Part shown: positions 4,929 to 48,163 of the stretch, one piece after another
How positions within the stretch are numbered: the stretch's first letter is position 1
Layout of the letters: each line of letters starts with the position of its first letter
From: an uncultured Candidatus Peribacteria bacterium
GTDB lineage: Bacteria > Patescibacteriota > Gracilibacteria > BD1-5 > JAGOOR01
Assembly (NCBI GenBank): GCA_964544625.1
Contig: CAZJBQ010000003.1
Coordinates: forward strand, 2,658 to 66,657
Direction: 5' to 3'
Length of the DNA: 64,000 bases
Made by a program: the position numbers and the translations under genes
The notes under the pieces: generated by a model
Told to the model about the DNA's origin: nothing
The model's database searches: none
Seen by the model: only the letters and a program-made list of their open reading frames with translations

Positions 4929-6089
4929 ATGTCATCCAATATTTCTCCATCGACACGTCAGTTTCTCATCAATATCGTCATTTTGGTGAGCACGGGGCTC
5001 ATACTCTGGTTGGCCTATATTCTGAGAGATATTATTGGTTTATTTCTGATATCTTGTTTTTTTGCTCTTCTTTTGTGACCTTTTGTTGTTCGTCTCAAAA
5101 AGTGGAAAATACCTGATGTATTAGGTATTTTATTGACTTTTTTTGGTGTTTTTGCTACTTTTACGCTTTTTATTGCTTCTATAGTTCCCGTTTTTGTTGG
5201 GTTGGCCGAAGATTCAAAGACATATATCGTTCATACTGTAACAACTCTTGAGCAACAGGCTCGAGCGGGCTTTCCCATCATCGATTCTTTGCCTTTCAAT
5301 GCTGGTAAACTCATCCGCAGCGAGATAGATATTGCCCATATTGCTTCGTTTGTGACTGATCAAAATCGTGCACAATTTGTTGTAGATGGCCTGATTGGAA
5401 ATATTGATACTATCAAAGACTTTGTTCAAAAATGAGTGGGGCAATTTTCGACCGTGAGTCTCTCATTGGCAACAGGTGTTACCTCAGCTGTGACGACTTT
5501 CACGCTCTTTCTTCTTCTGACATTTTTTATTATTCTCGAACGTCGTTCGTTGATTCGTTGGTTTTTTGGTATATTGCCATCAGACCTAGGACATTATTTT
5601 CGTCATCGACAGGCTGTGATCGCTCATGCTATACATGCATGGCTCCGTGGTCAACTCATGCTCGCACTGTTTATGTTTGTTATTAATCTGGTAGGACTCT
5701 CTATTGCGCAATGGTTTGGGCTTCCCGTGAATCACATATTTTCACTTGCGCTCATAGCATGAGCTATGGAATTTGTTCCATATCTTGGTCCAGTTATTGC
5801 TTTTATCCCTGCATTTTTGATGGTTCTCGTGAGTCCTGAGGTGAGCATGTGGGGGATTGGCGCCGTTATTGGTCTCTATATCCTCTTTCAACAACTCGAA
5901 GGGAATGTCATGGTGCCTCTCATTATGAGTCGTACTCTGAGTCTCTCATCGCTCTATATTCTCGTTGTGACTCTTGTATGAGCTTCGCTCTGAGGGGCCC
6001 TCGGTGTGCTCTTGGCTATCCCACTTGCATCGATTCTCAATATATTTTATCACGACTGGATGCATTACCGTCGTTCACTTAAGGAGTAA
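4929..6089 (+). CDS. AI-2E family transporter (PerM/YhhT, UPF0118)
   Basis: Three same-frame track fragments (5133.., 5436.., 5766..) plus an upstream ATG at 4929. A multi-TM protein with the C-terminal EFVPYLGP...QQLEGNVMVPLIMSR...LLAIPLAS pattern typical of UPF0118. 386 aa. Confidence 0.75.
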
Positions 6090-6091
6090 GA

Positions 6092-6787
6092 ATGCACACG
6101 TATCTTTCTGATAGAGTTCTCTATACGTGAATTGGTCCGAATTCTTGCGTGTATCTGGAGCCTGATTTTAGTCATTTTATTGGTTCTCTTATTCGAGTAG
6201 ATAATTTTCTCTGAGACTATGTCGGATATGACGACTGGATGAGCCATTTTTCTCGTCAAGAGGAGGTAACAATCGTCACAAAGAGCGTAGAGCAGGCCAA
6301 GCTCTCTCCTGGGAAACGAATCCATATTTGTGGTATTTCGACTGCTGAATCTGTAGAATGTATCAGAGACTATTATCGCGAATGTGGTTATGAAGATGCA
6401 CTCGCCAAGAATTATACACTTCCTCTCGATGTTACCTTGACCGTGAGCGTCTCACTTGGTCATGTATTATGGTGTGAAAAGGATAAAACATTCCTTGATT
6501 CAGACGGGATTGATAGTACTTTTTATGGACAGGCTTGTCCGCCATTTCGTTCTCCTCATGATCTCAGATCCCTCCAACAGGCACTTCGTATGGGTGTGAT
6601 TTTGGGGCTCGAGCTCTCTCCACGAGAGATACCATTTCTTTCTGATATATTGATACGACAGATAGTTCCACCTTTTTTGCTCAGCCAGATGATCTATTTT
6701 CGTTGGCAGAAATATGGTTTTACAGGCTCACAGCATTCGATTGATATTCAGTATCCAGATTTCTCCCAAACCAATAGTGATAACTAG
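6092..6787 (+). CDS. Hypothetical protein (231 aa)
   Basis: The ATG at 6092 is in frame with ORF 6239..6787, with two in-frame TGA upstream. PPFRSPHDLRSLQQALRMGVI weakly resembles the dihydroorotase NPPLR region, but no metal-binding histidines are visible. Confidence 0.55.
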
Positions 6788-20192: not shown

Positions 20193-21593
20193 ATGGCAGG
20201 ACCCGAAAAAACACCCGCGCAAAAAGAAGCTGAAAAAGCTGCTCTCGAGCAGGCTCGTCTCAAGGCTGCTCAAGAAGCTCAAGAACAACAAGAAAGAGCA
20301 GAAATGGCACAGGAATTATTGAAATCCAAAAAAGAATGAGTTGTTCAAGATACTAAAGAAAAAGAAGAACAACTCGACGTAGCTCTCCCTCCAGAAAATA
20401 TACTCAAAGATGAGAAAAAATTCGGAGAAATATTTGATCTCAAGCTCGCTAATACTCCTCGTAATATCCCAGCCTTTCTCGATGCAATAGCAGAGAAAAA
20501 TCCTACTCTTCTCCAGAATCCAATTATTATCCAGGTCCTTGCTGAGAAAATTCAGACACTTCTCCAAACGGTTGCCAAAGATTCGAGCCTCTCTGGAGAT
20601 CGTGATTGGATGGATCATCTTCGTCAGAGTATTCAGCGAGTTATCATCGATCCTGACCTCTACAAAAAAATGGATGCGTATGGTACGATGGATAAAGCCC
20701 TTCGAGACAAACTCCAGAGCCAACTCTGAATTGAGGGGATTACGGCGGATTTGGATAAAAACACAATAGACATTGTTCGTAGAGTGCATACTGGCTTTTA
20801 TCAATTTGATACTGAGATAAACGGTTGGGTGAATTCTCTCTGAGCCCATGTATTTCTCTGGCCAGAGAATATAGCCGGTATCAAGACATATCTCCGCGCT
20901 GTCCAGCCAGATCATCCTTTTCTCTCTGTCACCAATTATCATAGCAATGATAAAGAAGGGAAGTATACATTTCAATTCACAGGCGGTGGTCACAATATGG
21001 CACTGGCAGAAGCGGATTATCTCCAGCATTATCTCGCAGAACGTGCGAAAGGTCCGAAAATGACTCACGCAGAAATAGTGAATAAACTCGCTCAAACCCA
21101 TGCCGTGACTACTGGTTCTCAGGCTGCTGTTGATGCATTTGAAAATACGTATAAGCAAGGACGTGTAAGCTATTTGAATGAATCAAAAGGAAATTTTGTT
21201 ACCCAAAATACTGAGCTTTCAAAGACCATTTTACCGACAGAACCATATCTCCAACTAACTGCACTCGTCGAAAGTCCAAATTATGCTGACCAGAAGGAAA
21301 AATATGATAAAATACGTGAAAAACGTCCAGAAATTATGGATATTATTTATGATATTGCATGAGGATTTATACGTTTTGATACCGATCATCATCGTTTTGA
21401 AACTGCGACACAAAGAATTATACATTTCAATCGTTCTGAACTATCTATGATTGATGAAATATTTCAAAAATTTCAACCAAATTCTCCGTTTCTCATTGAT
21501 AGAAAAATTCGTACTAATGAAAATCGTCTCATAATGCAGGAACATGAGAAGCCAAAGATTCTCCAAGAGCGTCTCAATTACTATCAACAATAA
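20193..21593 (+). CDS. Hypothetical protein (466 aa)
   Basis: ATG at 20193 is in frame with ORF 20997..21362. Four in-frame TGA. The composition is charged and helical. The 280-aa minus-strand track ORF across this region looks like antisense noise. Confidence 0.6.
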
Positions 21594-22619: not shown

Positions 22620-22667
22620 CCAGGCCAGAAACTAATTCTACTCATTATACCTTAGGATATATCTCTT

Positions 22668-22774
22668 GTACTTTTTGCAGAAAAAGTACCAAAACTGTTT
22701 AGGGGACAAAAACTCGGTCAGTTTTTCGACTTACAGTTCTGCATTCATGGACCTTAGACAGTTTGTCCCCTAAA
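22668..22774. repeat. Structured intergenic repeat, copy B
   Basis: GTACTTTTTG-CAG-AAAAAGTAC, then CAAAA, then TTTAGGGGACAAA...TTTGTCCCCTAAA. Lies between convergent genes. Confidence 0.7.
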
Positions 22775-22803
22775 GACCCGTTTCCGTTTAGCTTTTTTTA
22801 AAA

Positions 22804-26821: not shown

Positions 26822-26863
26822 GTGAAAAGTATAGGGATTTTTATTCTGCTACAAAATCTCTTT

Positions 26864-26920
26864 GTACTTTTTGTCGAAAAAGTACCAAAACGATTCAAGG
26901 GGCAAAAACTCGGACTGTTT
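26864..26920. repeat. Structured intergenic repeat, copy C (3' arm missing)
   Basis: GTACTTTTTG-TCG-AAAAAGTAC CAAAA...CAAGGGGCAAAAACTCGG is present. The closing ...CCCCTAAA arm is absent, and the AT-rich gene begins at 26959. Confidence 0.6.
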
Positions 26921-26958
26921 TCATCTTTCGGTTATATGCTCATACACATCAACATAAC

Positions 26959-29214
26959 CTAGGTTCTTTGAAATAAATCGTCTATATCCTCCTCTCATTG
27001 ATAGATCCTTGATAATTCTTTATAACTCTCACTGTCACTATTGGTTAAGTCAGAAATATAATCATCTATCAGCGTTTTTATGTCGACACCAGCTGATACA
27101 TAACTTGTAGTTATATCTAACTGTTCTGCCCATTCTTCAAAATTTTCTAAACATTTTTCTGCTATTTTTTCTATTTCTCTTTCTATAGTCCACTCATCAT
27201 AATCTATTTCGTATTCACCATACGGGCCTCTTATTACATCTATAAAATCGCCTAAATATAGATCTTTTTTTCTATAATCCATATCGCTCTGCACATGATA
27301 TAAAATATCATCTCTTACTACTTCATCCAACGAATTATTTTTCAAGTTAAATTTTTCTACAAAAAACCATAAACCATTTAATTCTGATTCATCTAATATT
27401 CTTTGTGGTAGATAATCAACAATAAAATTAAAATCTGTTAATCACAATTCCTTATAGTATTCTGTTATTAAATCTAGGAAATAAACTATTTCATCAATTG
27501 GTTGTGGCGTTGAAAATATTTTCCTTAAGTACATTAGTATTTTTGTTTTAACTCATTCTTCTTCGTAGTATCTACATGAAGATAATAAATAGATTATGTA
27601 GTTCGAGTTTTTATCTGCCAATCATGCATCATTTAATAAACTGAGCTTTATTTGTTTTTCAATATCCTTACTTACAATTTTATTAAAACTTAAGTTACCT
27701 AGTAACTTCAGAGATTTTGTCGTGTTCAATGCTTTAAATATTTTTTCTAGTTTTTTTGTATTTGTATTTAAGTGATTTAAAACGTAGTCGGTTATTGATG
27801 GATTGAATAAAGAATAAATAATTATTTTCTCCGAGTTTTTAGATCTATTTAAAAAAATTTTTATAGCTAATCTTACCATAGAATTAAAATCTTTTTCTGT
27901 ATGTGAATTATTTTGCAATTTTTCATATTCAATTAGTTTTTCATAACTAATCTGTAAATTTTTTTCAGTGATTTCTCATCAATTAAATACTGTTAGATAA
28001 ACTAAACATCGTACATATTCATTAGTTTGACTGCCCAATGAGTTTGCCCAAATATTTTTTGGATTATTAAGCGCATCTAGAACATAATCCCAAAAACCTT
28101 CTTTTTCTTCATATCCAGATGTTATTGATTCAATAATGCGAGGATTATAATTTTTATGCTTTATAATTTCTTTATATCTTTTATCTTTATATATTTCGCT
28201 TACCTGTTTTTCTGTTAATTTTCAAAAGTATATATGATTATAAAGTATTCTTGCTTTCTCTAAGAGGTTTAGATTTTCTACCTTGAGAAGTAATTCATTT
28301 GTTTCAATTCTTGCTTTCTCTATGTAAGGACTATAAGCTTTTCAGTTATTTAGTATGTTTGTTCTGGTAGTTAATATAAATCTCTTCTGAGGGTCATTTT
28401 TAATTCTTTCAATGAAATTGATTATGTGAGAGTCCTTTTTATTTTCTATTGCTTCAAAATAATTACTTCCTAAGAAATCGTCAAAATAAAATATTTGTTT
28501 ATTTTTATTGTAAGCATTTTCAGCCTCACTTATATTTTCTTCAATACTAACAAATTCATACCCATTGCCTGTAAAGAATAAAGATAAATTCTCTGCAAGA
28601 GTTGTTTTCCCTATGCCAGGTTCTCAATAAATTATTAAAACATGCTTTTCTTTTAATATCTTCAATGCTCTTTCGTGATTCTCTGTCAGAATGTATTTAT
28701 TTATTTTTTTTTGTATTCTTTCTATTTCAAACTTGCTTCTTCCAATGATTGCATTATTTACAATCTTGCTAATTGTGCCTGGATTATTCATCCAGAGTTT
28801 ATAATTATTTTCATATATGTCTTGATTTGTATCTAATAAATCGCTCAAGTCCTCTTCTCAAAATACATCATCATCTTGTTTTAGATAAGGATTGAATTTT
28901 TCTTTTATATCTTTTTTTTGTTTTCTAGATAATCATAAAGATGTTATAAAAATGTATCTTCCGGGGTTAAGGGCTTTAACTTTATTTTTTTCTTCTTTTT
29001 CTATTTCACGCATTAGTCACTTGTATCATGTTTTTAGATAATGTTTACATTGAATTATGCACTCTTTTCATTCATCGTAAAAAAATCGCCCGTCAACTCA
29101 TTGGTCTTTTCCTGATTTAAATCTTTCAATTCTTCTGTTTAGTAGTTTTGATATTAGTTGTATTGCCAATGTTTCAAATTCTTTGTCATTTAGTGCCTGA
29201 AAGTTATATTTCAT
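26959..29214 (-). CDS. Mrr-like PD-(D/E)xK nuclease fused to a STAND-type P-loop NTPase (751 aa)
   Basis: Four track fragments share one frame and I translated them line by line with no TAA or TAG. N-terminus has KSGKDQ[G]VDGRFF...IIQCKHY (D...QxK nuclease core). Walker A is [G]EPGIGKTT, Walker B-like is IFYFDDF, then ILTTR, then about 400 aa of helical C-terminal region. 15 in-frame TGA. Very AT-rich. Confidence 0.75.
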
Positions 29215-29278
29215 ATTTTTATCCTTTCTTAAACTATTGCTTTCCATTCTATCCACTATACTATCCTCTGCAATGTTC

Positions 29279-31639
29279 ATGGCAAATAAACACCCACAAT
29301 CCCTGGCTCTTTGACTCGATTTCGCACCTGATTTTGAGAGGATTCGTCGTGAGTACTCGCCGATTGAGATAAATCAAATAGCCAATCCAGAGCATCCGCC
29401 CGTGGGAATTGAGTATGTCGAGTGTGATACGCTCTCGGAACTGGTCGAGTTTCTGAAAAAACAAAAAAATATTCTCGTTCTCACCAAACAGACACCCGTG
29501 ATGGAGAAGTTTTGCAGTGAGAATGAGATAGAAGCACGGATTCATGCGTGGAAACTCTGAGGTCCGTCGTTTGTCCTCGACGGTCAGTGTGTGATTACTG
29601 ATGAGCTGATTTGACCACTCTTGGGCGGAGTCTTCCGACGGAAGAAGCGACCGCAACTAGACTTGCTCGTCCAGATAAAAGCAGGAGATCCTGTGGTGCA
29701 TCTCTTTCATGGTGTGGGGATATTTCAGTGAATCGTGCGCAATACTCTTTCCGGAACTGAGCGTGAATATATTGAGATAGAATACGCGGAGAAGGATAGG
29801 CTCTTTGTGCCAGTCGAGGAGCTTCATCGTGTCTCGAAATTCGTCGGAGAGACGACGCCGACACTCACTCGTCTGGGTTCACCTGCGTGGAAAACTATCC
29901 TCGCAAAAACAAACGAAGAAATCCAACAAATCGCTGAAGAACTTCTCGCGAATCACGCCGCTCGTCGTATGGCTGGTGGTGTGTCGATGATGGATTTTCC
30001 GGAAAAAGAAGAGACATTTCATCTCGCATTTCCACATAAGCACACGCTCGATCAAGAAGAGGCGATTCACGGGATTATGGCCGACATGAATAGTGAAAAA
30101 CCGATGGACAGACTCCTCTCTGGTGATGTCGGATTTGGCAAAACAGAGGTGTCACTGCATGCGGTCTATCGTGCATTTCTCAATGAAAAACAAACTATTT
30201 TTCTCGCACCGCTCGTGGTCCTCGCTTACGAACATTATGAGTCAATTCGTGAACGTCTCAAACCGTTTGGAGTGAATGTCGCGATGATGACGCGCATGAG
30301 TACGACCAAGGAAATTACTACCGTTTTAAAAGGTCTCAAAGATGGCTCTATTCATTGTGTTATTGGGACACACAGACTCCTCTCACCAGATATAAAATTC
30401 AGAAATCTCGGACTTGTTGTCGTCGACGAAGAACATAAATTTGGTGTGGCAGATAAAGAAAAAATCATGCACCTCAAAGCAGGTGTCGATACGCTCGCAC
30501 TCTCAGCAACTCCGATTCCGCGCTCCCTCAATCTCGCACTCTCTGGTGTGAAAAATTTCTCAATATTGTCTACTCCGCCACACGGGAAAAAGCCGATTCA
30601 TACAGCTGTGGCACGCTATGATCAGACCATAGTCAAGCGAGCTATCGAAGAAGAGCTCGCTCGTGGTGGCAAAGTATTTTTCGTTCACAATACCATCAAG
30701 ACACTCCCGATTCTCAAAAAAGAAATCGAATCGCTCGTACCAAAAGCAAAAGTGGTTATCACGAATGGTCAGCTTCCATCGGATGATCTCGAAGACCGTA
30801 TCATGGAATTCAAACTCGGTATGCACAACGTTCTCCTCACGACGACCGTGATAGAAAACGGTATCAACTTCCTCGATACCAACACTATCATCATCGATGA
30901 AGCAGAAGATTTCGGACTCGCACAACTCCACCAACTTCGTGGACGTGTCGGTCGTGGACAGATTCAGGGGATTTGTTATCTCATGTATCGACAACCAGAA
31001 CTGCAGGACGAAGCACGAGAGAGGCTGATGACGATCGCGAACCATACCCATCTCGGTGCAGGATTTGAGATAGCGCTTCGTGATATGGAAATCCGATGAG
31101 TGGGTGATGTTCTCTGAGTTCGACAGTCTGGCAAGACTCGTGATGTTGGCGTGAGTTTCTATCTGAAATTATTGGAACAAAAAATCGAAGAACTTCAGTC
31201 TGGAAAAAAAGAATCAAAAGTGGATACCACGATTGATCTGCCTATCAGCGCCTATATCCCTGACGAGGCGTTTAGTTCTGATATTGAGAAGATTCATTTC
31301 TACCGTGAACTCGAATCTGTCCGTAGTGAAGAAGAGCTCGCAGAAGTTATCGAACCACTGAAGACTCGTATCGATATAAAACAATCAGCCGTCGACCATC
31401 TCTTTCTCCTTATTCGTGCACGACTCCGACTCTCATCACTTGGTGTCCGTCGCGTCTTTATGCAGCTCGGGAAATATACGCTTGAATGGGGAAGTGAAGG
31501 TGAGAAAACGCTCGATGCGATGAAACAGATTATCAAAGACGATACCAAAAAATGTGCAGAAGTCCTCTCAGGCAAAAAAATTGCCTTCTCGAGGAAGGCA
31601 TTTTTGAATCATGGGGAATTTCTCGGGTATTTTCTTTAA
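29279..31639 (+). CDS. mfd: Transcription-repair coupling factor, N-terminally short form (786 aa)
   Basis: GDPVVHLFHGVGIFQ[G]I, EYAEKDRLFVPVEEL, GDVGFGKTEV, VVDEEHKFG, LSATPIPR, GRVGRG, and MEIR[G]VGDVL[G]VRQSGK with TGA at the conserved Gly positions (31097, 31115). Only about 130 aa precede the RNAP-interaction region. Confidence 0.9.
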
Positions 31640-45575: not shown

Positions 45576-46328
45576 TTAGAGTTGCATAATTTCGGTAGGG
45601 TCTATCTTGAATTGGAGCATATTTGCTGAATCTCTTCAGCCATCTCATCATTTTCTTTGAACTGTTATTCTTCAAATGTTTATGCTTCATCGAGGTGATA
45701 TTTTAATCTCACCATTACCATAGTAGTTCATTACTTCTCAAATTGGTTTTAGAACCCATTCATACAGTGATGTTTTTCTTATAACAAGCATCCATTCAGC
45801 ACAAAAGTCACCACGACCACGAATTATATCGCTTACAATCATGATTTTATTTTGTTTAAAAAAATTTAGTATGGTTGTCTGTTCTTGTGAGGACATTTCA
45901 TGTAAAAACATTCGTCTCTTATCTTTTGTTCATTTTTTGTAAGGTTTCTTTTCTCCACAAAAATAGGCAAGTAGCTCATAAACATCTTCCGGTATGCCCC
46001 ACATCTCTTTGTAGTTTTTGAGCCATCTTTTATCAATTTGGTTAAATCAAGAATCATTAGATACAAGTTTTACGGATATGTTCTGTAAATCTATTGCATC
46101 TTGAAGTTTTATGATAATTTTTACTTGCACCTGAACATCTGTTTTATTTCCCATTGGCACTTTAACCGCTTTTACATATTCTATTTTTTTTAAATCATAT
46201 CCCATGGTTGTGAGCCATTTTTGTGCAATTTCATTATGCTGCCAATCATTGAATATCTCAATAATGTCTGCTTCATTCTGGAATCATTGTTTTGCTGTCT
46301 GAGATCAGCGTTGTATTGGGTCGAGCAT
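45576..46328 (-). CDS. Putative type II restriction endonuclease (250 aa)
   Basis: Translated line by line with no TAA or TAG, about 10 in-frame TGA. It overlaps the 3' end of the adjacent C5-MTase gene. ...MGNKTDVQVQVKI...ISVKLVS...ITVQRK[GG]D[GG]RDSANMLQFKI loosely recalls MspI/HpaII-type enzymes, from memory only. Confidence 0.55.
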
Positions 46329-47304
46329 AAGAATTTTGATGAGATATAAAAGTGGCAAGAGATTTACCGAGTGCTTCAATTACATTTACCGACATAGCAT
46401 TACCCGCTTGACCGAGTAAGTCTTGGTCAGGAATTGTTCATTGAGTCTTGATTGCCTTGTTATAATCAATTCATTGTAATAATAGTGCCTCTAATCCTGA
46501 AATATCTCGCAATTTACCATCTCGAACATAGAGAAGCCCATGTCTGCCCGTGCGTAATGTTGGAGAAAAATCCTTATAGAAACGAATGTCACTTTGTCGT
46601 GTATCAATTATGTATCATGTTTTTTTCAGTAGATCATTTATTGTTATAGATCATTTATTGTATTTATTTTTTAAATAATGTTCTAATGTATTTAACCTGC
46701 TTTCGCTTAATACATATTTTGATGATTTTTCGATGAGATATTTTTCTAATCCTACTTTATGTTTTTTTTCTGGGAAACTTAACTTTGTCTGAAAAGGTCA
46801 TAAATCTTTTCTTATTCATAAAAAGTAAACTCTATCTCTTGATTGGGGGAGACCGTAATCTATTGTATTTAAAACTTCCCATTTAACGTAGTATCCTGCA
46901 TCATTAAGCAATTCAACAATACTTTTTATAGTTTTCCCATTTTCGTGATTTACGAGTCATTTTACATTTTCTAAAATAAAATACTTTATTTTTCTTTCTT
47001 TAAGTATTTTGGTAATTCAAAAAATAATTTGTCATCTTGGATCTTCCATTCATTTTCTTTGCCCCATTACGGAGAAAGTCTGACAAGGAAATCAGGCTAT
47101 CAATATATCAAAATGAGGCAATTCTGAGCTATTAATTTTCATTAGATCTCAGAAATTTCTTTCTTCATGTCAATAAAAAGTACGATAAGTTCATTCCGCT
47201 TTTTTATTTATTTCTGAGAAAGCTACACACTGAAATCAAGCTCGTTCAAGACCTAAACGACCACATCAAATCCCTGCACAGAAATCCATAAACGTGTAAA
47301 TCAT
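46234..47304 (-). CDS. DNA (cytosine-5)-methyltransferase
   Basis: Motif I FCAGI[G]CG, motif IV [G]FPCQTFS, motif VI ENVK[G]L, motif VIII QSRDRVYF, motif X GNAMSVNV. 356 aa with 19 in-frame TGA. No track ORF of 60 aa or more lies in this gene's reading frame. Confidence 0.85.
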
Positions 47305-47824: not shown

Positions 47825-48163
47825 TTATTTTCTATCCAATTTTTTGCTGGTAGCAAATAATTCAGCCTCGTTCTCTATTTCTCTTATGTATTGTTTATAA
47901 TCTTGATATTGATTATATGAATCTTTATGTGAATGGCTACCTTCAGACATACTGAGTATTTTTGAGTCTAGATCTATCTCTTCTTTTATTTTTCGTTCCT
48001 GATATTCGTCATCTTTATTTTTTGCCGTACTCATTTTGTATAAGAAGTATAGAAAAAATATTGTTCATATAATCATTACCCACTCTACACTTTTTACATA
48101 TTCTGGGAATAATTCTTCCACAGTGTAATTGGAAGAGCACTGTTCTATACTATCGATGGTCAT
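47825..48163 (-). CDS. Hypothetical small membrane protein (112 aa)
   Basis: ORF 47825..48034 extends upstream across one TGA to ATG at 48163, adding a TM segment (WVMII[G]TIFFLYFLY). AT-rich. Confidence 0.45.

What the first reader, a model, noticed from the sequence alone, without database searches (positions are those of the whole stretch)
26864..29278. AT-rich single-gene island encodes an Mrr-like nuclease fused to a STAND-type NTPase (candidate anti-phage gene)
Positions 26959-29214 are visibly much more AT-rich than the flanking genes. Under table 25 they form one 751-aa ORF, where the track shows four pieces. The layout is an N-terminal PD-(D/E)xK core (GKDQGVDG...IIQCK), then a P-loop (GEPGIGKTT), a Walker B-like FYFDDF, ILTTR, and about 400 aa of helical region with no motif I recognise. 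Effector, STAND NTPase and sensor in that order is the logic of Avs-type and nSTAND conflict systems, but this protein is shorter than typical Avs proteins. The island's downstream edge coincides with the truncated copy C of the structured repeat. Its start lies 64 nt head-to-head with a shortened mfd.
Basis: partly seen in the sequence, partly recalled or inferred. Interest (0 to 1): 0.75.

Follow-up and report, generated by a model that had tools for sequence, protein, structure and literature searches.

The report
Recoded Mrr-nuclease STAND defence gene island
An AT-rich single-gene insert next to mfd in a TGA-recoded Gracilibacteria genome encodes an Avs-like immune sensor (nuclease + STAND ATPase + helical sensor) of a catalogued but untested anti-phage candidate family, and it sits in a hotspot where related genomes carry other AT-rich genes.

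Summary
On the minus strand, window 29214→26962 (stop 26959-26961) is one 751-aa ORF if TGA is read as Gly. Its GC is 0.266, against 0.421±0.022 for 42 backbone genes (z = -7.1).

The protein matches PADLOC candidate family PDC-S73 end to end (E = 6e-225). It also matches Pfam nSTAND3 (1e-48) and Mrr_cat (above the cut-off). A confident model of a 50%-identical homolog is closest in fold to Avs4, SAMD9 and Avs5. Nuclease and Walker A/B residues are invariant across the family.

The gene is absent upstream of mfd in all 14 related Gracilibacteria loci. Most of those carry a different AT-rich gene at the same spot, including a KAP NTPase (PDC-S20-like) and a PD-T7-4-like protein. A 40-nt promoter-like block lies beside the slot in six of them.

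One other lineage has the same cassette. There dS is 0.24 for the cassette and 1.46 for the flanking gene, so the cassette was exchanged recently between code-25 lineages. It is under purifying selection (ω = 0.16).

44% of its Gly codons are TGA, including invariant glycines next to the nuclease catalytic residues and in Walker A.

Verdict: a real, new member of a known but unvalidated kind. The hotspot and the recoded gene pool are the moderately novel parts.

The parts
26959..29214 (-). Complete CDS (751 codons plus TAG stop) of the Mrr-like nuclease / nSTAND3 / helical-sensor protein, read with table 25 (15 TGA = Gly)
   Evidence: ORF and code. (Pfam, PADLOC PDC-S73 6.4e-225). An AAGGA Shine-Dalgarno-like motif lies 8 nt upstream of ATG 29214.
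28732..29214 (-). N-terminal effector module, aa 1-161: Mrr-like PD-(D/E)xK restriction-endonuclease fold plus a helical extension
   Evidence: Pfam Mrr_cat aa 6-62, 26.6 bits > 21. PADLOC models Aga_TIR-PNTD1-PNTD2 (2e-36) and Aga_REase-TIR-PNTD1-PNTD2 (2e-25) match aa 1-161.
29044..29112 (-). Nuclease catalytic core GKDQGVDG...IIQCK (aa 35-57). D37, D41, Q55 and K57 are invariant, and so is the upstream E14
   Evidence: Invariant columns of the 39-sequence alignment A1. G39 is encoded by TGA.
28225..28695 (-). nSTAND3 NTPase domain (aa 174-330)
   Evidence: Pfam PF20720, E = 1.3e-48, model positions 1-155 of 155.
28603..28626 (-). Walker A GEPGIGKT (aa 197-204). G197 is encoded by TGA
   Evidence: G197, G200, G202 and K203 are invariant.
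28474..28491 (-). Walker B FYFDDF (aa 242-247). LTTRTN (aa 281-286, window 28357-28374), with invariant R284, follows
26962..28224 (-). C-terminal region (aa 331-751): helical/winged-helix STAND arm, variable helical sensor, acidic low-confidence linker, and the conserved terminal motif (E)DIDDLF(Q/E)R(T/S)
   Evidence: No Pfam family. Secondary structure of the homolog model. The consensus is poorly conserved from about aa 500-740, but F748 is invariant and R750 is at least 90% conserved. dN is 0.09 here against 0.01 in the N-terminal domains.
26934..29236 (.). The AT-rich island as delimited by loss of homology to related genomes
   Evidence: blastn of the window against L001-L015. Junction alignments. 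GC profile.
26860..26945 (.). Truncated copy of a dispersed two-hairpin repeat at the downstream (left) junction. Hairpin 1 (GTACTTTTT-n4-AAAAAGTAC) is intact. The 3' arm of hairpin 2 is missing
   Evidence: The full copy L001 2553-2670 folds with z = -6.1.
29237..29278 (-). Conserved backbone block between the island and the mfd ATG. On the minus strand it reads TTGCAG (29273-29268), 16 nt, TAGAAT (29251-29246). This is a candidate resident promoter pointing into the cargo slot
   Evidence: Alignment of the window with L001, L005-L008 and L015. The second hexamer stays TAnAAT in all of them. It is a consensus-level inference only; the promoter scan of the region is not enriched over shuffles.
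29279..31639 (+). mfd (786 aa, short form), the conserved right-hand anchor of the hotspot
   Evidence: Pfam CarD_TRCF_RID, DEAD, Helicase_C and TRCF. 77-96% aa identity in 14 related loci.

Best explanation
The gene encodes a single-polypeptide, Avs-like (bacterial NLR-like) anti-phage sensor of the PADLOC candidate family PDC-S73.

It has three parts:
- an N-terminal Mrr-type PD-(D/E)xK nuclease, which is the effector;
- a central nSTAND3 P-loop NTPase, the same Pfam domain as in Avs5, which is the switch;
- about 420 aa of helical C-terminal region, which is the sensor.

The likely mechanism is inferred from characterised Avs3, Avs4 and Avs5. In the resting state the protein is a monomer with the nuclease held inactive. 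When the C-terminal region binds a phage-derived ligand, the NTP-bound STAND domains oligomerise. This brings the nuclease domains together. They then cut DNA indiscriminately, which stops the infection at the cost of the cell.

Three things are shown here:
- the domain identities;
- intact, invariant catalytic and NTP-binding residues;
- purifying selection with a faster-evolving C-terminus, together with the STAND/Avs-type fold of a homolog.

The ligand, the oligomeric state and the nuclease substrate are inferred.

In this genome the gene is a promoter-proximal cargo in a variable slot directly upstream of mfd, divergent from it. Related Gracilibacteria hold other AT-rich genes in that slot. 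The cassette has been exchanged between code-25 lineages and is thoroughly adapted to that code.
For: **Identity**
- PDC-S73 matches with E = 6.4e-225 over the full length.
- nSTAND3 scores 1.3e-48 and Mrr_cat scores above its gathering cut-off.
- More than 1400 homologs of about 750 aa share the same two Pfam domains.

**Residues**
- E14, D37, D41, Q55-x-K57, G197/G200/G202/K203, D245-D246 and R284 are all invariant or nearly so.

**Fold**
- The model of homolog P0002 has pLDDT 85.3 and pTM 0.73.
- Its best PDB matches are Avs4 bound to phage portal (4.7e-10), SAMD9, the Avs5 filament, EfAvs5, Apaf-1 and NOD2.

**Defence context in other phyla**
- P0027 is embedded in a type I R-M operon beside AbiEi/AbiEii, on an element with an integrase.
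- P0069 lies next to an AAA_15/AAA_21 ATPase.
- Relatives occur on 54 plasmids and in 3 phage records.
- PDC families were defined by exactly this kind of embedding.

**Selection**
- ω = 0.155 overall. dN is 0.09 in aa 521-751, against 0.009-0.013 in the nuclease and NTPase domains.

**Island and hotspot**
- The gene is absent from 14 related loci.
- Alternative cargo at the same slot includes a KAP NTPase matching PDC-S20, QatA and PifA, and a DUF4145 protein matching PD-T7-4.

**Recent transfer**
- Between the window and L015, dS is 0.24 for the cassette and 1.46 for the flanking Na/Ca exchanger.
Against: - No member of PDC-S73 has been shown experimentally to protect against phage, as far as the library shows.
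- The protein matches no PADLOC AVAST model. No solved structure is detectable by sequence profile beyond the P-loop.
- TM-scores to Avs and SAMD9 are low (0.2-0.3).
- Most alternative cargos at the hotspot are unannotated membrane proteins or lipoproteins, not recognisable defence genes. The slot is therefore not exclusively a defence island.
- The only other copy of the cassette (L015) carries a +1 frameshift in a T-run.
Confidence: 0.72

Rival explanations
1. It is an NTP-dependent, modification-dependent (type IV, Mrr/McrBC-like) restriction enzyme. The C-terminal region reads DNA, for example modified bases, rather than a phage protein. The NTPase drives assembly or translocation on DNA, and the Mrr domain cuts foreign DNA without killing the cell.
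For: All named homologs are annotated 'restriction endonuclease'. The Mrr_cat domain is present. The best sequence match among solved structures is the McrB AAA+ domain, E = 4e-4. The family is often embedded in R-M loci.
Against: The McrB match is weak and confined to the P-loop region. The nSTAND3 match is 44 orders of magnitude stronger. The fold search ranks STAND/NLR proteins first, not McrB. No Mrr_N or other known DNA-reading domain is detected. The domain order, effector then NTPase then sensor, is the STAND order. The variable C-terminus with raised dN fits an arms-race sensor.
Confidence: 0.15
2. It is a selfish or addictive cargo, or a decaying remnant with no current host function. 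On this view it is an AT-rich foreign gene carried along at a recombination hotspot, silenced or on its way to loss.
For: It has extreme compositional deviation and a patchy distribution. The L015 copy has a frameshift after codon 43. No close relatives were found in two further collections.
Against: The ORF is intact at 751 codons with every catalytic residue preserved. ω = 0.155 between the two copies, after mentally removing the single extra T. It has a good SD and a conserved promoter-like block upstream. The T9 run in L015 could be an assembly error.
Confidence: 0.08
3. It is a non-immune STAND regulator, MalT- or AfsR-like, that controls host genes.
For: MalT and other non-immune STANDs appear among the fold matches.
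Against: There is no DNA-binding output domain. The output is a nuclease with an intact active site. It is strain-variable and horizontally exchanged. It sits in defence neighbourhoods in other phyla.
Confidence: 0.03

Closest known systems
PADLOC phage-defence candidate PDC-S73 (single-gene candidate, 'guilt-by-embedding' set of Payne et al., bioRxiv 10.1101/2024.01.29.577857)
   Same: The HMM matches end to end: residues 1-750 against model positions 1-751 of 752, E = 6.4e-225. It has the same length and the same two Pfam domains as more than 100 homologs.
   Different: This copy is encoded with 15 TGA = Gly codons in a code-25 CPR bacterium. It is the most divergent member of the set examined, at most 50% identical to full-length (≥700 aa) standard-code members. 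The family itself is only a prediction.
Avs5 / AVAST type 5 (SIR2-nSTAND3-repeat sensor; PDB 9nc9, 9jap)
   Same: It has the same Pfam NTPase domain, nSTAND3, a similar size (768-833 aa), and fold-level similarity over about 700 columns. The tripartite logic is the same.
   Different: The effector is an Mrr-type nuclease, not a SIR2 NADase. There is no sequence-level match to PADLOC AVAST models or to Avs5 PDB sequences. Sensor homology is not established.
Avs4 (EcAvs4, Mrr-like nuclease-STAND-TPR; PDB 8dgf)
   Same: It is the best structural match (E = 4.7e-10). It has an N-terminal Mrr-like nuclease effector followed by a STAND NTPase. Avs4 senses the phage portal and tetramerises to activate the nuclease, according to the PDB title and Gao et al. 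2022 (from memory).
   Different: Avs4 is about twice as long (1534-1541 aa) and has a large TPR sensor. Identity is 12% and TM-score 0.23. The STAND subfamily is different.
Human SAMD9 (antiviral STAND restriction factor; PDB 9zjs, 9zjv)
   Same: It is the second-best structural match (7.5e-8). The Avs5 sensor is reported to cluster with SAMD9 (PMC13581612).
   Different: SAMD9 is eukaryotic, larger and has different effector domains. The similarity is at fold level only.
Mrr / McrBC type IV restriction enzymes
   Same: It shares the Mrr_cat catalytic fold and has a weak AAA+ similarity to McrB.
   Different: The nuclease is N-terminal and lacks the Mrr_N reader. The NTPase is a STAND type, not the McrB GTPase.

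Membership tests
PDC-S73 (PADLOC-DB v2) | Full-length match to the family HMM PDLC05079 | tested here: met
   E = 6.4e-225, 747 bits, protein 1-750 against model 1-751 of 752.
PDC-S73 (PADLOC-DB v2) | Single-gene system found embedded in, or next to, known defence systems | tested here: met
   In the window it is a lone gene. Homolog P0027 sits inside a type I R-M operon beside AbiE. Homolog P0069 lies next to an AAA_15/AAA_21 ATPase.
PDC-S73 (PADLOC-DB v2) | Demonstrated anti-phage activity | not testable with these tools
   No paper in the library mentions PDC-S73. The validated PDCs in PMC12881386 are S05, S70 and M05.
STAND NTPase superfamily (nSTAND3 clade) | P-loop NTPase domain matching nSTAND3, with Walker A, Walker B and a downstream conserved Arg | tested here: met
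   PF20720, E = 1.3e-48, full model. GEPGIGKT, FYFDDF and R284 are invariant.
STAND NTPase superfamily (nSTAND3 clade) | NTPase followed by a helical/winged-helix arm and a C-terminal sensor; overall STAND fold | tested here: met
   Model of homolog P0002 (pLDDT 85.3). The top PDB matches are Avs4, SAMD9, Avs5, Apaf-1, NOD2 and MalT. This was tested on a 50%-identical proxy, not on the window protein itself.
Avs1-5 (AVAST) as defined by PADLOC HMMs | Significant match to an AVAST family HMM | tested here: not met
   No AVAST model is listed at E ≤ 1. There is no sequence-level hit to Avs4 or Avs5 chains in the PDB.
Avs (functional definition: antiviral STAND that senses a phage protein and oligomerises) | Phage-protein-triggered oligomerisation and effector activation | not testable with these tools
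   Inferred from architecture only.
Avs families 6-90+ of PMC13581612 | Placement in one of the published STAND clades or sensor clusters | not tested
   The supplementary tables are not held, so accessions of homologs could not be looked up.
Mrr-type PD-(D/E)xK nuclease | Mrr_cat domain with catalytic D...(E/Q)xK residues | tested here: met
   Mrr_cat scores 26.6 bits against a cut-off of 21. D37, D41, Q55 and K57 are invariant in 39 sequences.
Mrr/McrBC type IV restriction enzymes | N-terminal DNA-modification reader (Mrr_N or McrB-N) with the catalytic domain C-terminal; McrB-type GTPase | tested here: not met
   No reader domain is detected. Mrr_cat is at aa 6-62 and the NTPase is nSTAND3. 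McrB similarity is only E = 4e-4 over the P-loop.
Horizontally acquired genomic island | Atypical composition, absence from close relatives, and discordant divergence from the flanks | tested here: met
   z = -7.1. Absent in 14 of 14 related loci. dS is 0.24 for the cassette and 1.46 for the flank. No integrase, transposase or tRNA lies at the site.

The most novel reading that the evidence does not exclude
The slot upstream of mfd may be an expression-ready cassette hotspot specific to this Gracilibacteria clade. On this reading, a resident promoter (TTGCAG-16-TAnAAT) drives whichever AT-rich, TGA-rich, promoterless gene has been recombined in. The cassettes would form a gene pool private to code-25 organisms. 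With TGA at essential glycines, for example in Walker A and next to the nuclease catalytic residues (G39), these genes cannot be expressed in standard-code cells. The genetic code would then fence off the defence pan-genome of these bacteria. The unannotated cargos (membrane proteins, lipoproteins, an 802-aa protein) would then be candidates for new defence or surface-variation functions. A T-run after codon 43 might also act as a phase-variation switch.
Probability: 0.3. Interest if true: 0.65.

Novelty: new member of a known kind. Interest (0 to 1): 0.45.

Why it matters
CPR bacteria have tiny genomes and are often described as poor in immune systems. Here a code-25 Gracilibacteria chromosome carries at least two AT-rich defence islands in 64 kb: this Avs-like gene and a HinP1I-type R-M pair.

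The STAND gene shows three things.
- NLR-like immunity reaches recoded CPR lineages.
- Such genes become locked to the alternative code, with 44% of Gly codons being TGA.
- They still move between diverged code-25 lineages.

It also gives a compact, 751-aa, single-gene member of an unvalidated candidate family (PDC-S73). That family is an Avs5/SAMD9-type body with an Avs4-type nuclease, and it could be tested directly.

The mfd-adjacent slot, with its conserved promoter-like block, is a practical place to look for further unknown defence genes in this clade.

On a practical level, public databases hold these proteins mistranslated with code 4, for example a Walker A motif reading GEPGVWKT. That hides motifs from annotation.

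Tried and rejected
- **Structure of the window protein.** I modelled the 50%-identical homolog P0002 instead.
- **C-terminal region alone.** A single-sequence model of P0002 residues 331-751 failed (pLDDT 39.5) and was not searched. Whether the sensor is homologous to Avs5 or SAMD9 therefore stays open.
- **Sequence searches against solved structures.** Single-sequence and profile searches gave only P-loop-level hits: McrB at 4e-4 and Lon at 2e-3.
- **NCBIfam.** No family reached anywhere near its cut-off.
- **Close recoded relatives.** A protein-pattern scan and a degenerate DNA pattern spanning the TGA codon found nothing in JGI metagenomes, and the protein-pattern scan found nothing in IMG/VR either.
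- **Published Avs clade number.** Supplements of PMC13581612 and PMC12803255 are not held.
- **Rfam and tRNA scans.** There is no RNA family or tRNA at the island, so a tRNA-targeted integration is rejected.
- **Promoter and terminator scan.** It was not enriched over shuffles. The downstream hairpin is not a canonical terminator, and the fold of the intergenic region has z = -1.3.
- **Island truncating mfd.** Rejected. Relatives without the island have the same short mfd.
- **Code 4 (TGA = Trp).** Rejected. TGA codons align to invariant Gly columns and never to Trp columns.
Full report
**1. The observation**

The window is from an organism that reads TGA as a sense codon. Allowing TGA as sense raises the summed length of ORFs of at least 150 aa from 12.5k to 40k aa.

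The feature lies on the minus strand. ATG 29214 through to TAG 26959-26961 gives one 751-codon ORF containing 15 in-frame TGA codons. Under table 11 the same stretch is split into pieces of 60, 74, 98 and 116 aa.

GC in 400-nt windows drops to 0.23-0.29 across 27000-29200, against 0.42-0.47 on both sides. The CDS has GC 0.266 and GC3 0.198. Forty-two backbone genes average 0.421 ± 0.022, so z = -7.1. No other 2.26-kb stretch of the window is as AT-rich.

The mfd start is at 29279, 64 nt away and divergent. All the quoted motifs exist.

**2. Which code**

I aligned the protein with 120 homologs. Nine of the 15 TGA codons lie in columns where Gly is the majority residue in 118 standard-code homologs. 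Five are essentially invariant:
- G39 of GKDxGVDG
- G63
- G119
- G197, the first Gly of Walker A
- G291

None lies in a Trp column. So TGA = Gly (table 25), not Trp (table 4).

Two database homologs, P0001 and P0069 (the latter labelled 'gcode 4'), carry W at conserved Gly columns because they were translated with code 4. An example is a Walker A motif reading GEPGVWKT.

**3. What the protein is**

- Pfam: nSTAND3 (PF20720), E = 1.3e-48, over the whole 155-position model at aa 174-330.
- Pfam: Mrr_cat (PF04471), 26.6 bits against a gathering score of 21, at aa 6-62. Nothing is detected after aa 330.
- PADLOC: PDC-S73, E = 6.4e-225, residues 1-750 on model positions 1-751 of 752.
- PADLOC: aa 1-161 also match two models named Aga_(REase-)TIR-PNTD1-PNTD2 (2e-36 and 2e-25). 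From memory I take these to be Argonaute-associated effector proteins, which would indicate a shared nuclease module. I did not verify this.
- PADLOC: no AVAST model is listed.
- NCBIfam gives nothing near its cut-offs.

The large protein collection holds more than 1400 relatives. The best 120 are almost all 745-760 aa with the same two Pfam domains. They come from many phyla: Planctomycetota, Ignavibacteria, Omnitrophota, Anaerolineae, Spirochaetota, Paceibacterota and a Pacearchaeota bin. Where they are named at all, they are called 'restriction endonuclease'.

Across 39 aligned sequences the following are invariant or at least 90% conserved:
- E14, D37, D41 and Q55-x-K57, the PD-(D/E)xK-type site
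- G197, G200, G202 and K203
- D245 and D246
- R284

From about aa 500 to 740 the consensus is largely undefined. The last residues, DIDDLFER(T/S), are then strongly conserved, and F748 is invariant.

**4. Fold**

I therefore modelled P0002 (751 aa, 50% identical) with a 38-sequence alignment. The result has mean pLDDT 85.3 and pTM 0.73.

Foldseek against the PDB ranks these matches first:

| Match | PDB | E-value |
|---|---|---|
| EcAvs4 bound to phage portal | 8dgf | 4.7e-10 |
| Human SAMD9 | 9zjs | 7.5e-8 |
| Avs5 filament | 9nc9 | 8.7e-8 |
| EfAvs5 | 9jap | 9.2e-6 |

Apaf-1, NOD2, MalT and plant NLR resistosomes follow.

TM-scores are low (0.2-0.3), as expected for flexible multi-domain proteins, so this is fold-class evidence only. 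Sequence profiles detect no solved relative beyond the P-loop.

The literature adds two links. nSTAND3 is the NTPase subdomain of Avs5 (SIR2-nSTAND3-repeats). The Avs5 sensor clusters with SAMD9 (PMC13581612).

The protein is therefore best described as an Avs5/SAMD9-type STAND body carrying an Avs4-type Mrr nuclease. At 751 aa it is the size of Avs5 (768-833 aa), so it is not anomalously short.

**5. Defence context elsewhere**

- P0027 is found on 24+ contigs. It sits inside a type I R-M operon in the order HsdM, AbiEi, AbiEii, [Mrr-nSTAND3], a 141-aa gene, HsdS, HsdR. An integrase and a D5-type primase lie next to it.
- P0069, from a code-25 bin, is adjacent to an AAA_15/AAA_21 ATPase and an RHS toxin.
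- Relatives sharing the first ~500 aa at about 31% identity occur on 54 plasmids, 28 of them conjugative, and in 3 phage records.
- PDC families were defined by this sort of embedding.
- I found no experimental test of PDC-S73.

**6. The island and the hotspot**

A scan of GTDB species representatives with the mfd protein returned 14 loci from Gracilibacteria-type MAGs. Some are labelled Peribacteria. Their mfd is 77-96% identical to the window's.

A tblastn with genetic code 25 finds the STAND gene in none of them. Backbone homology with the window stops at 26933 on the left and resumes at 29237 on the right.

Immediately upstream of mfd, most relatives carry a different AT-rich gene (GC 0.27-0.33) on the strand opposite to mfd:

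| Locus | Cargo |
|---|---|
| L001 | Cys-rich membrane protein |
| L003, L012 | Membrane proteins |
| L005, L006 | Lipoproteins |
| L007 | 160-aa membrane protein |
| L008 | 241-aa protein |
| L002 | 802-aa protein, GC 0.37 |
| L011 | DUF4145 protein matching PD-T7-4 (1.8e-9) |
| L009 | KAP-family NTPase (Pfam 7e-36) matching PDC-S20 (8.5e-33), QatA and PifA |

L004 and L014 have no such cargo.

A conserved block of about 40 nt (window 29237-29275) separates the slot from the mfd ATG in the window, L001, L005-L008 and L015. On the cargo strand it reads TTGCAG, 16 nt, TAGAAT. The second hexamer varies only as TAnAAT. I infer that this is a resident promoter that drives whatever sits in the slot. 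This is a consensus-level inference, and the generic promoter scan of the region is not above shuffles.

At the other edge, the island ends inside a dispersed two-hairpin repeat. Full copies lie at window 22664-22785 and at L001 2553-2670 (fold z = -6.1). The copy at 26860-~26945 has lost the 3' arm of hairpin 2.

No integrase, transposase or tRNA is nearby. Replacement by recombination between the flanks is therefore the most economical route. This is inferred.

**7. Recent exchange, selection and code adaptation**

One Logan contig (L015) carries the same cassette, also head to head with an mfd start. Comparing the window with L015:
- The cassette is 93% identical in nucleotides, while the neighbouring Na/Ca exchanger gene is 74% identical.
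- By Nei-Gojobori with code 25, dS is 0.24 for the STAND gene and 1.46 for the exchanger.
- ω is 0.155 overall for the STAND gene.
- dN is 0.009-0.013 in the nuclease and NTPase domains and 0.091 in aa 521-751.

The cassette therefore moved between already diverged code-25 lineages. It is kept by purifying selection, and its C-terminus evolves fastest, as expected of a sensor.

The L015 copy has one extra T in a T-run after codon 43. Whether this is a real frameshift or an assembly error cannot be decided here.

TGA supplies 15 of 34 Gly codons (44%) in this gene. In 15 backbone genes it supplies 69 of 720 (9.6%). GGA to TGA is a single transversion, so this fits long residence under AT pressure in code-25 genomes.

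Among the 120 best hits, only P0001 and P0069 show the recoding signature. P0069 groups with standard-code members rather than with the window. This suggests more than one entry of the family into recoded lineages, though the evidence is weak.

No further close relatives were found in JGI metagenomes or IMG/VR.

**8. Mechanism**

Shown:
- an intact nuclease site;
- an intact NTP-binding site;
- a STAND-class fold;
- a variable C-terminus;
- defence neighbourhoods in other phyla;
- mobility.

Inferred by analogy with Avs3/4 and Avs5:
- ligand binding by the C-terminal region;
- NTP-dependent oligomerisation;
- proximity-activation of the Mrr nuclease domains;
- indiscriminate DNA cleavage, leading to abortive infection.

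The main rival is an NTP-dependent type IV restriction enzyme that reads DNA. It is not excluded, but it is disfavoured by the domain order, the absence of a reader domain and the STAND fold.

**9. Verdict**

It is a new member, recoded and CPR-borne, of a catalogued but untested defence candidate family. It is Avs-like in architecture but not a member of Avs1-5 by HMM.

The parts that go beyond the ordinary are:
- the mfd-adjacent cassette slot with a conserved promoter-like block;
- the evidence that defence cassettes circulate within a code-25 gene pool.

I rate interest as moderate (0.45).

Noticed in passing
window 45576-47304 (minus strand): A second AT-rich island (GC 0.32-0.33) encodes a type II R-M pair: an R.HinP1I-family endonuclease (Pfam 1.3e-95) and a C5 cytosine methyltransferase (2.9e-72). 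TGA makes up 10 of 19 and 19 of 34 of their Gly codons, as in the STAND gene.
   Followed up: partly
window 22664-22785; truncated copy 26860-26945; fragment about 1188-1212; L001 2553-2670; L005 6972-7024; L009 3847-3899; L012 about 6083-6237: A dispersed intergenic repeat with two hairpins: GTACTTTTT-n4-AAAAAGTAC, then a long stem TTAAGGGGCAAA...TTTGCCCCTTAA. The L001 copy folds with z = -6.1. There is no Rfam match. Its function is unknown. One copy forms the left junction of the island.
   Followed up: partly
L015 about 205-215 (equivalent to window about 29078-29087): The only other copy of the cassette has T9 where the window has A+T7, directly after the DGR of the nuclease motif. This puts the rest of the gene out of frame. 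It could be an assembly error, a pseudogene, or slipped-strand phase variation.
   Followed up: no
window 26962-26994 (aa 741-751) and alignment A1: The extreme C-terminus, (E)DIDDLF(E/Q)R(T/S), is conserved across phyla, and F748 is invariant. It follows a poorly conserved, acidic, low-confidence linker (pLDDT < 50 at 727-738 of the model). It may be a docking or autoinhibitory peptide.
   Followed up: no
window 29279-31639 and L001-L014: mfd in this whole clade is a short form (786-859 aa). The CarD/TRCF RNAP-interaction domain already begins at aa 134, so most of the N-terminal UvrB-homology module of E. coli Mfd seems to be missing. The comparison with E. coli is from memory.
   Followed up: partly
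L009 8688-10000 (minus strand), chromosome OZ246415.1: In the closest complete genome the slot upstream of mfd holds a roughly 407-aa KAP-family P-loop NTPase with GC about 0.29. It matches PDC-S20, QatA and PifA.
   Followed up: yes
L011 1481-2074 (minus strand): Another relative carries a 197-aa DUF4145 protein with an N-terminal Cys-rich motif in the same slot. It matches the PD-T7-4 defence protein at 1.8e-9.
   Followed up: yes
proteins P0001 and P0069 (public databases): Both are stored translated with code 4, so conserved glycines appear as Trp. Examples are Walker A motifs reading 'YWEPGIGKT' and 'GEPGVWKT'. P0001 is also cut to 684 aa. Annotation of code-25 genes in public collections is affected.
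   Followed up: partly
window 47825-48163 and 21283-21534: Two further small AT-rich ORFs (GC 0.30 and 0.30) lie between GC-typical genes. The first has no Pfam family; the second was not scanned.
   Followed up: no
window 29183-29210 (plus strand): The best promoter-like match in the region, TTGTCA-16-TATATT (10 of 12), lies inside the 5' end of the STAND gene and points towards mfd. If it is functional, part of mfd's upstream control would be supplied by the cargo.
   Followed up: no
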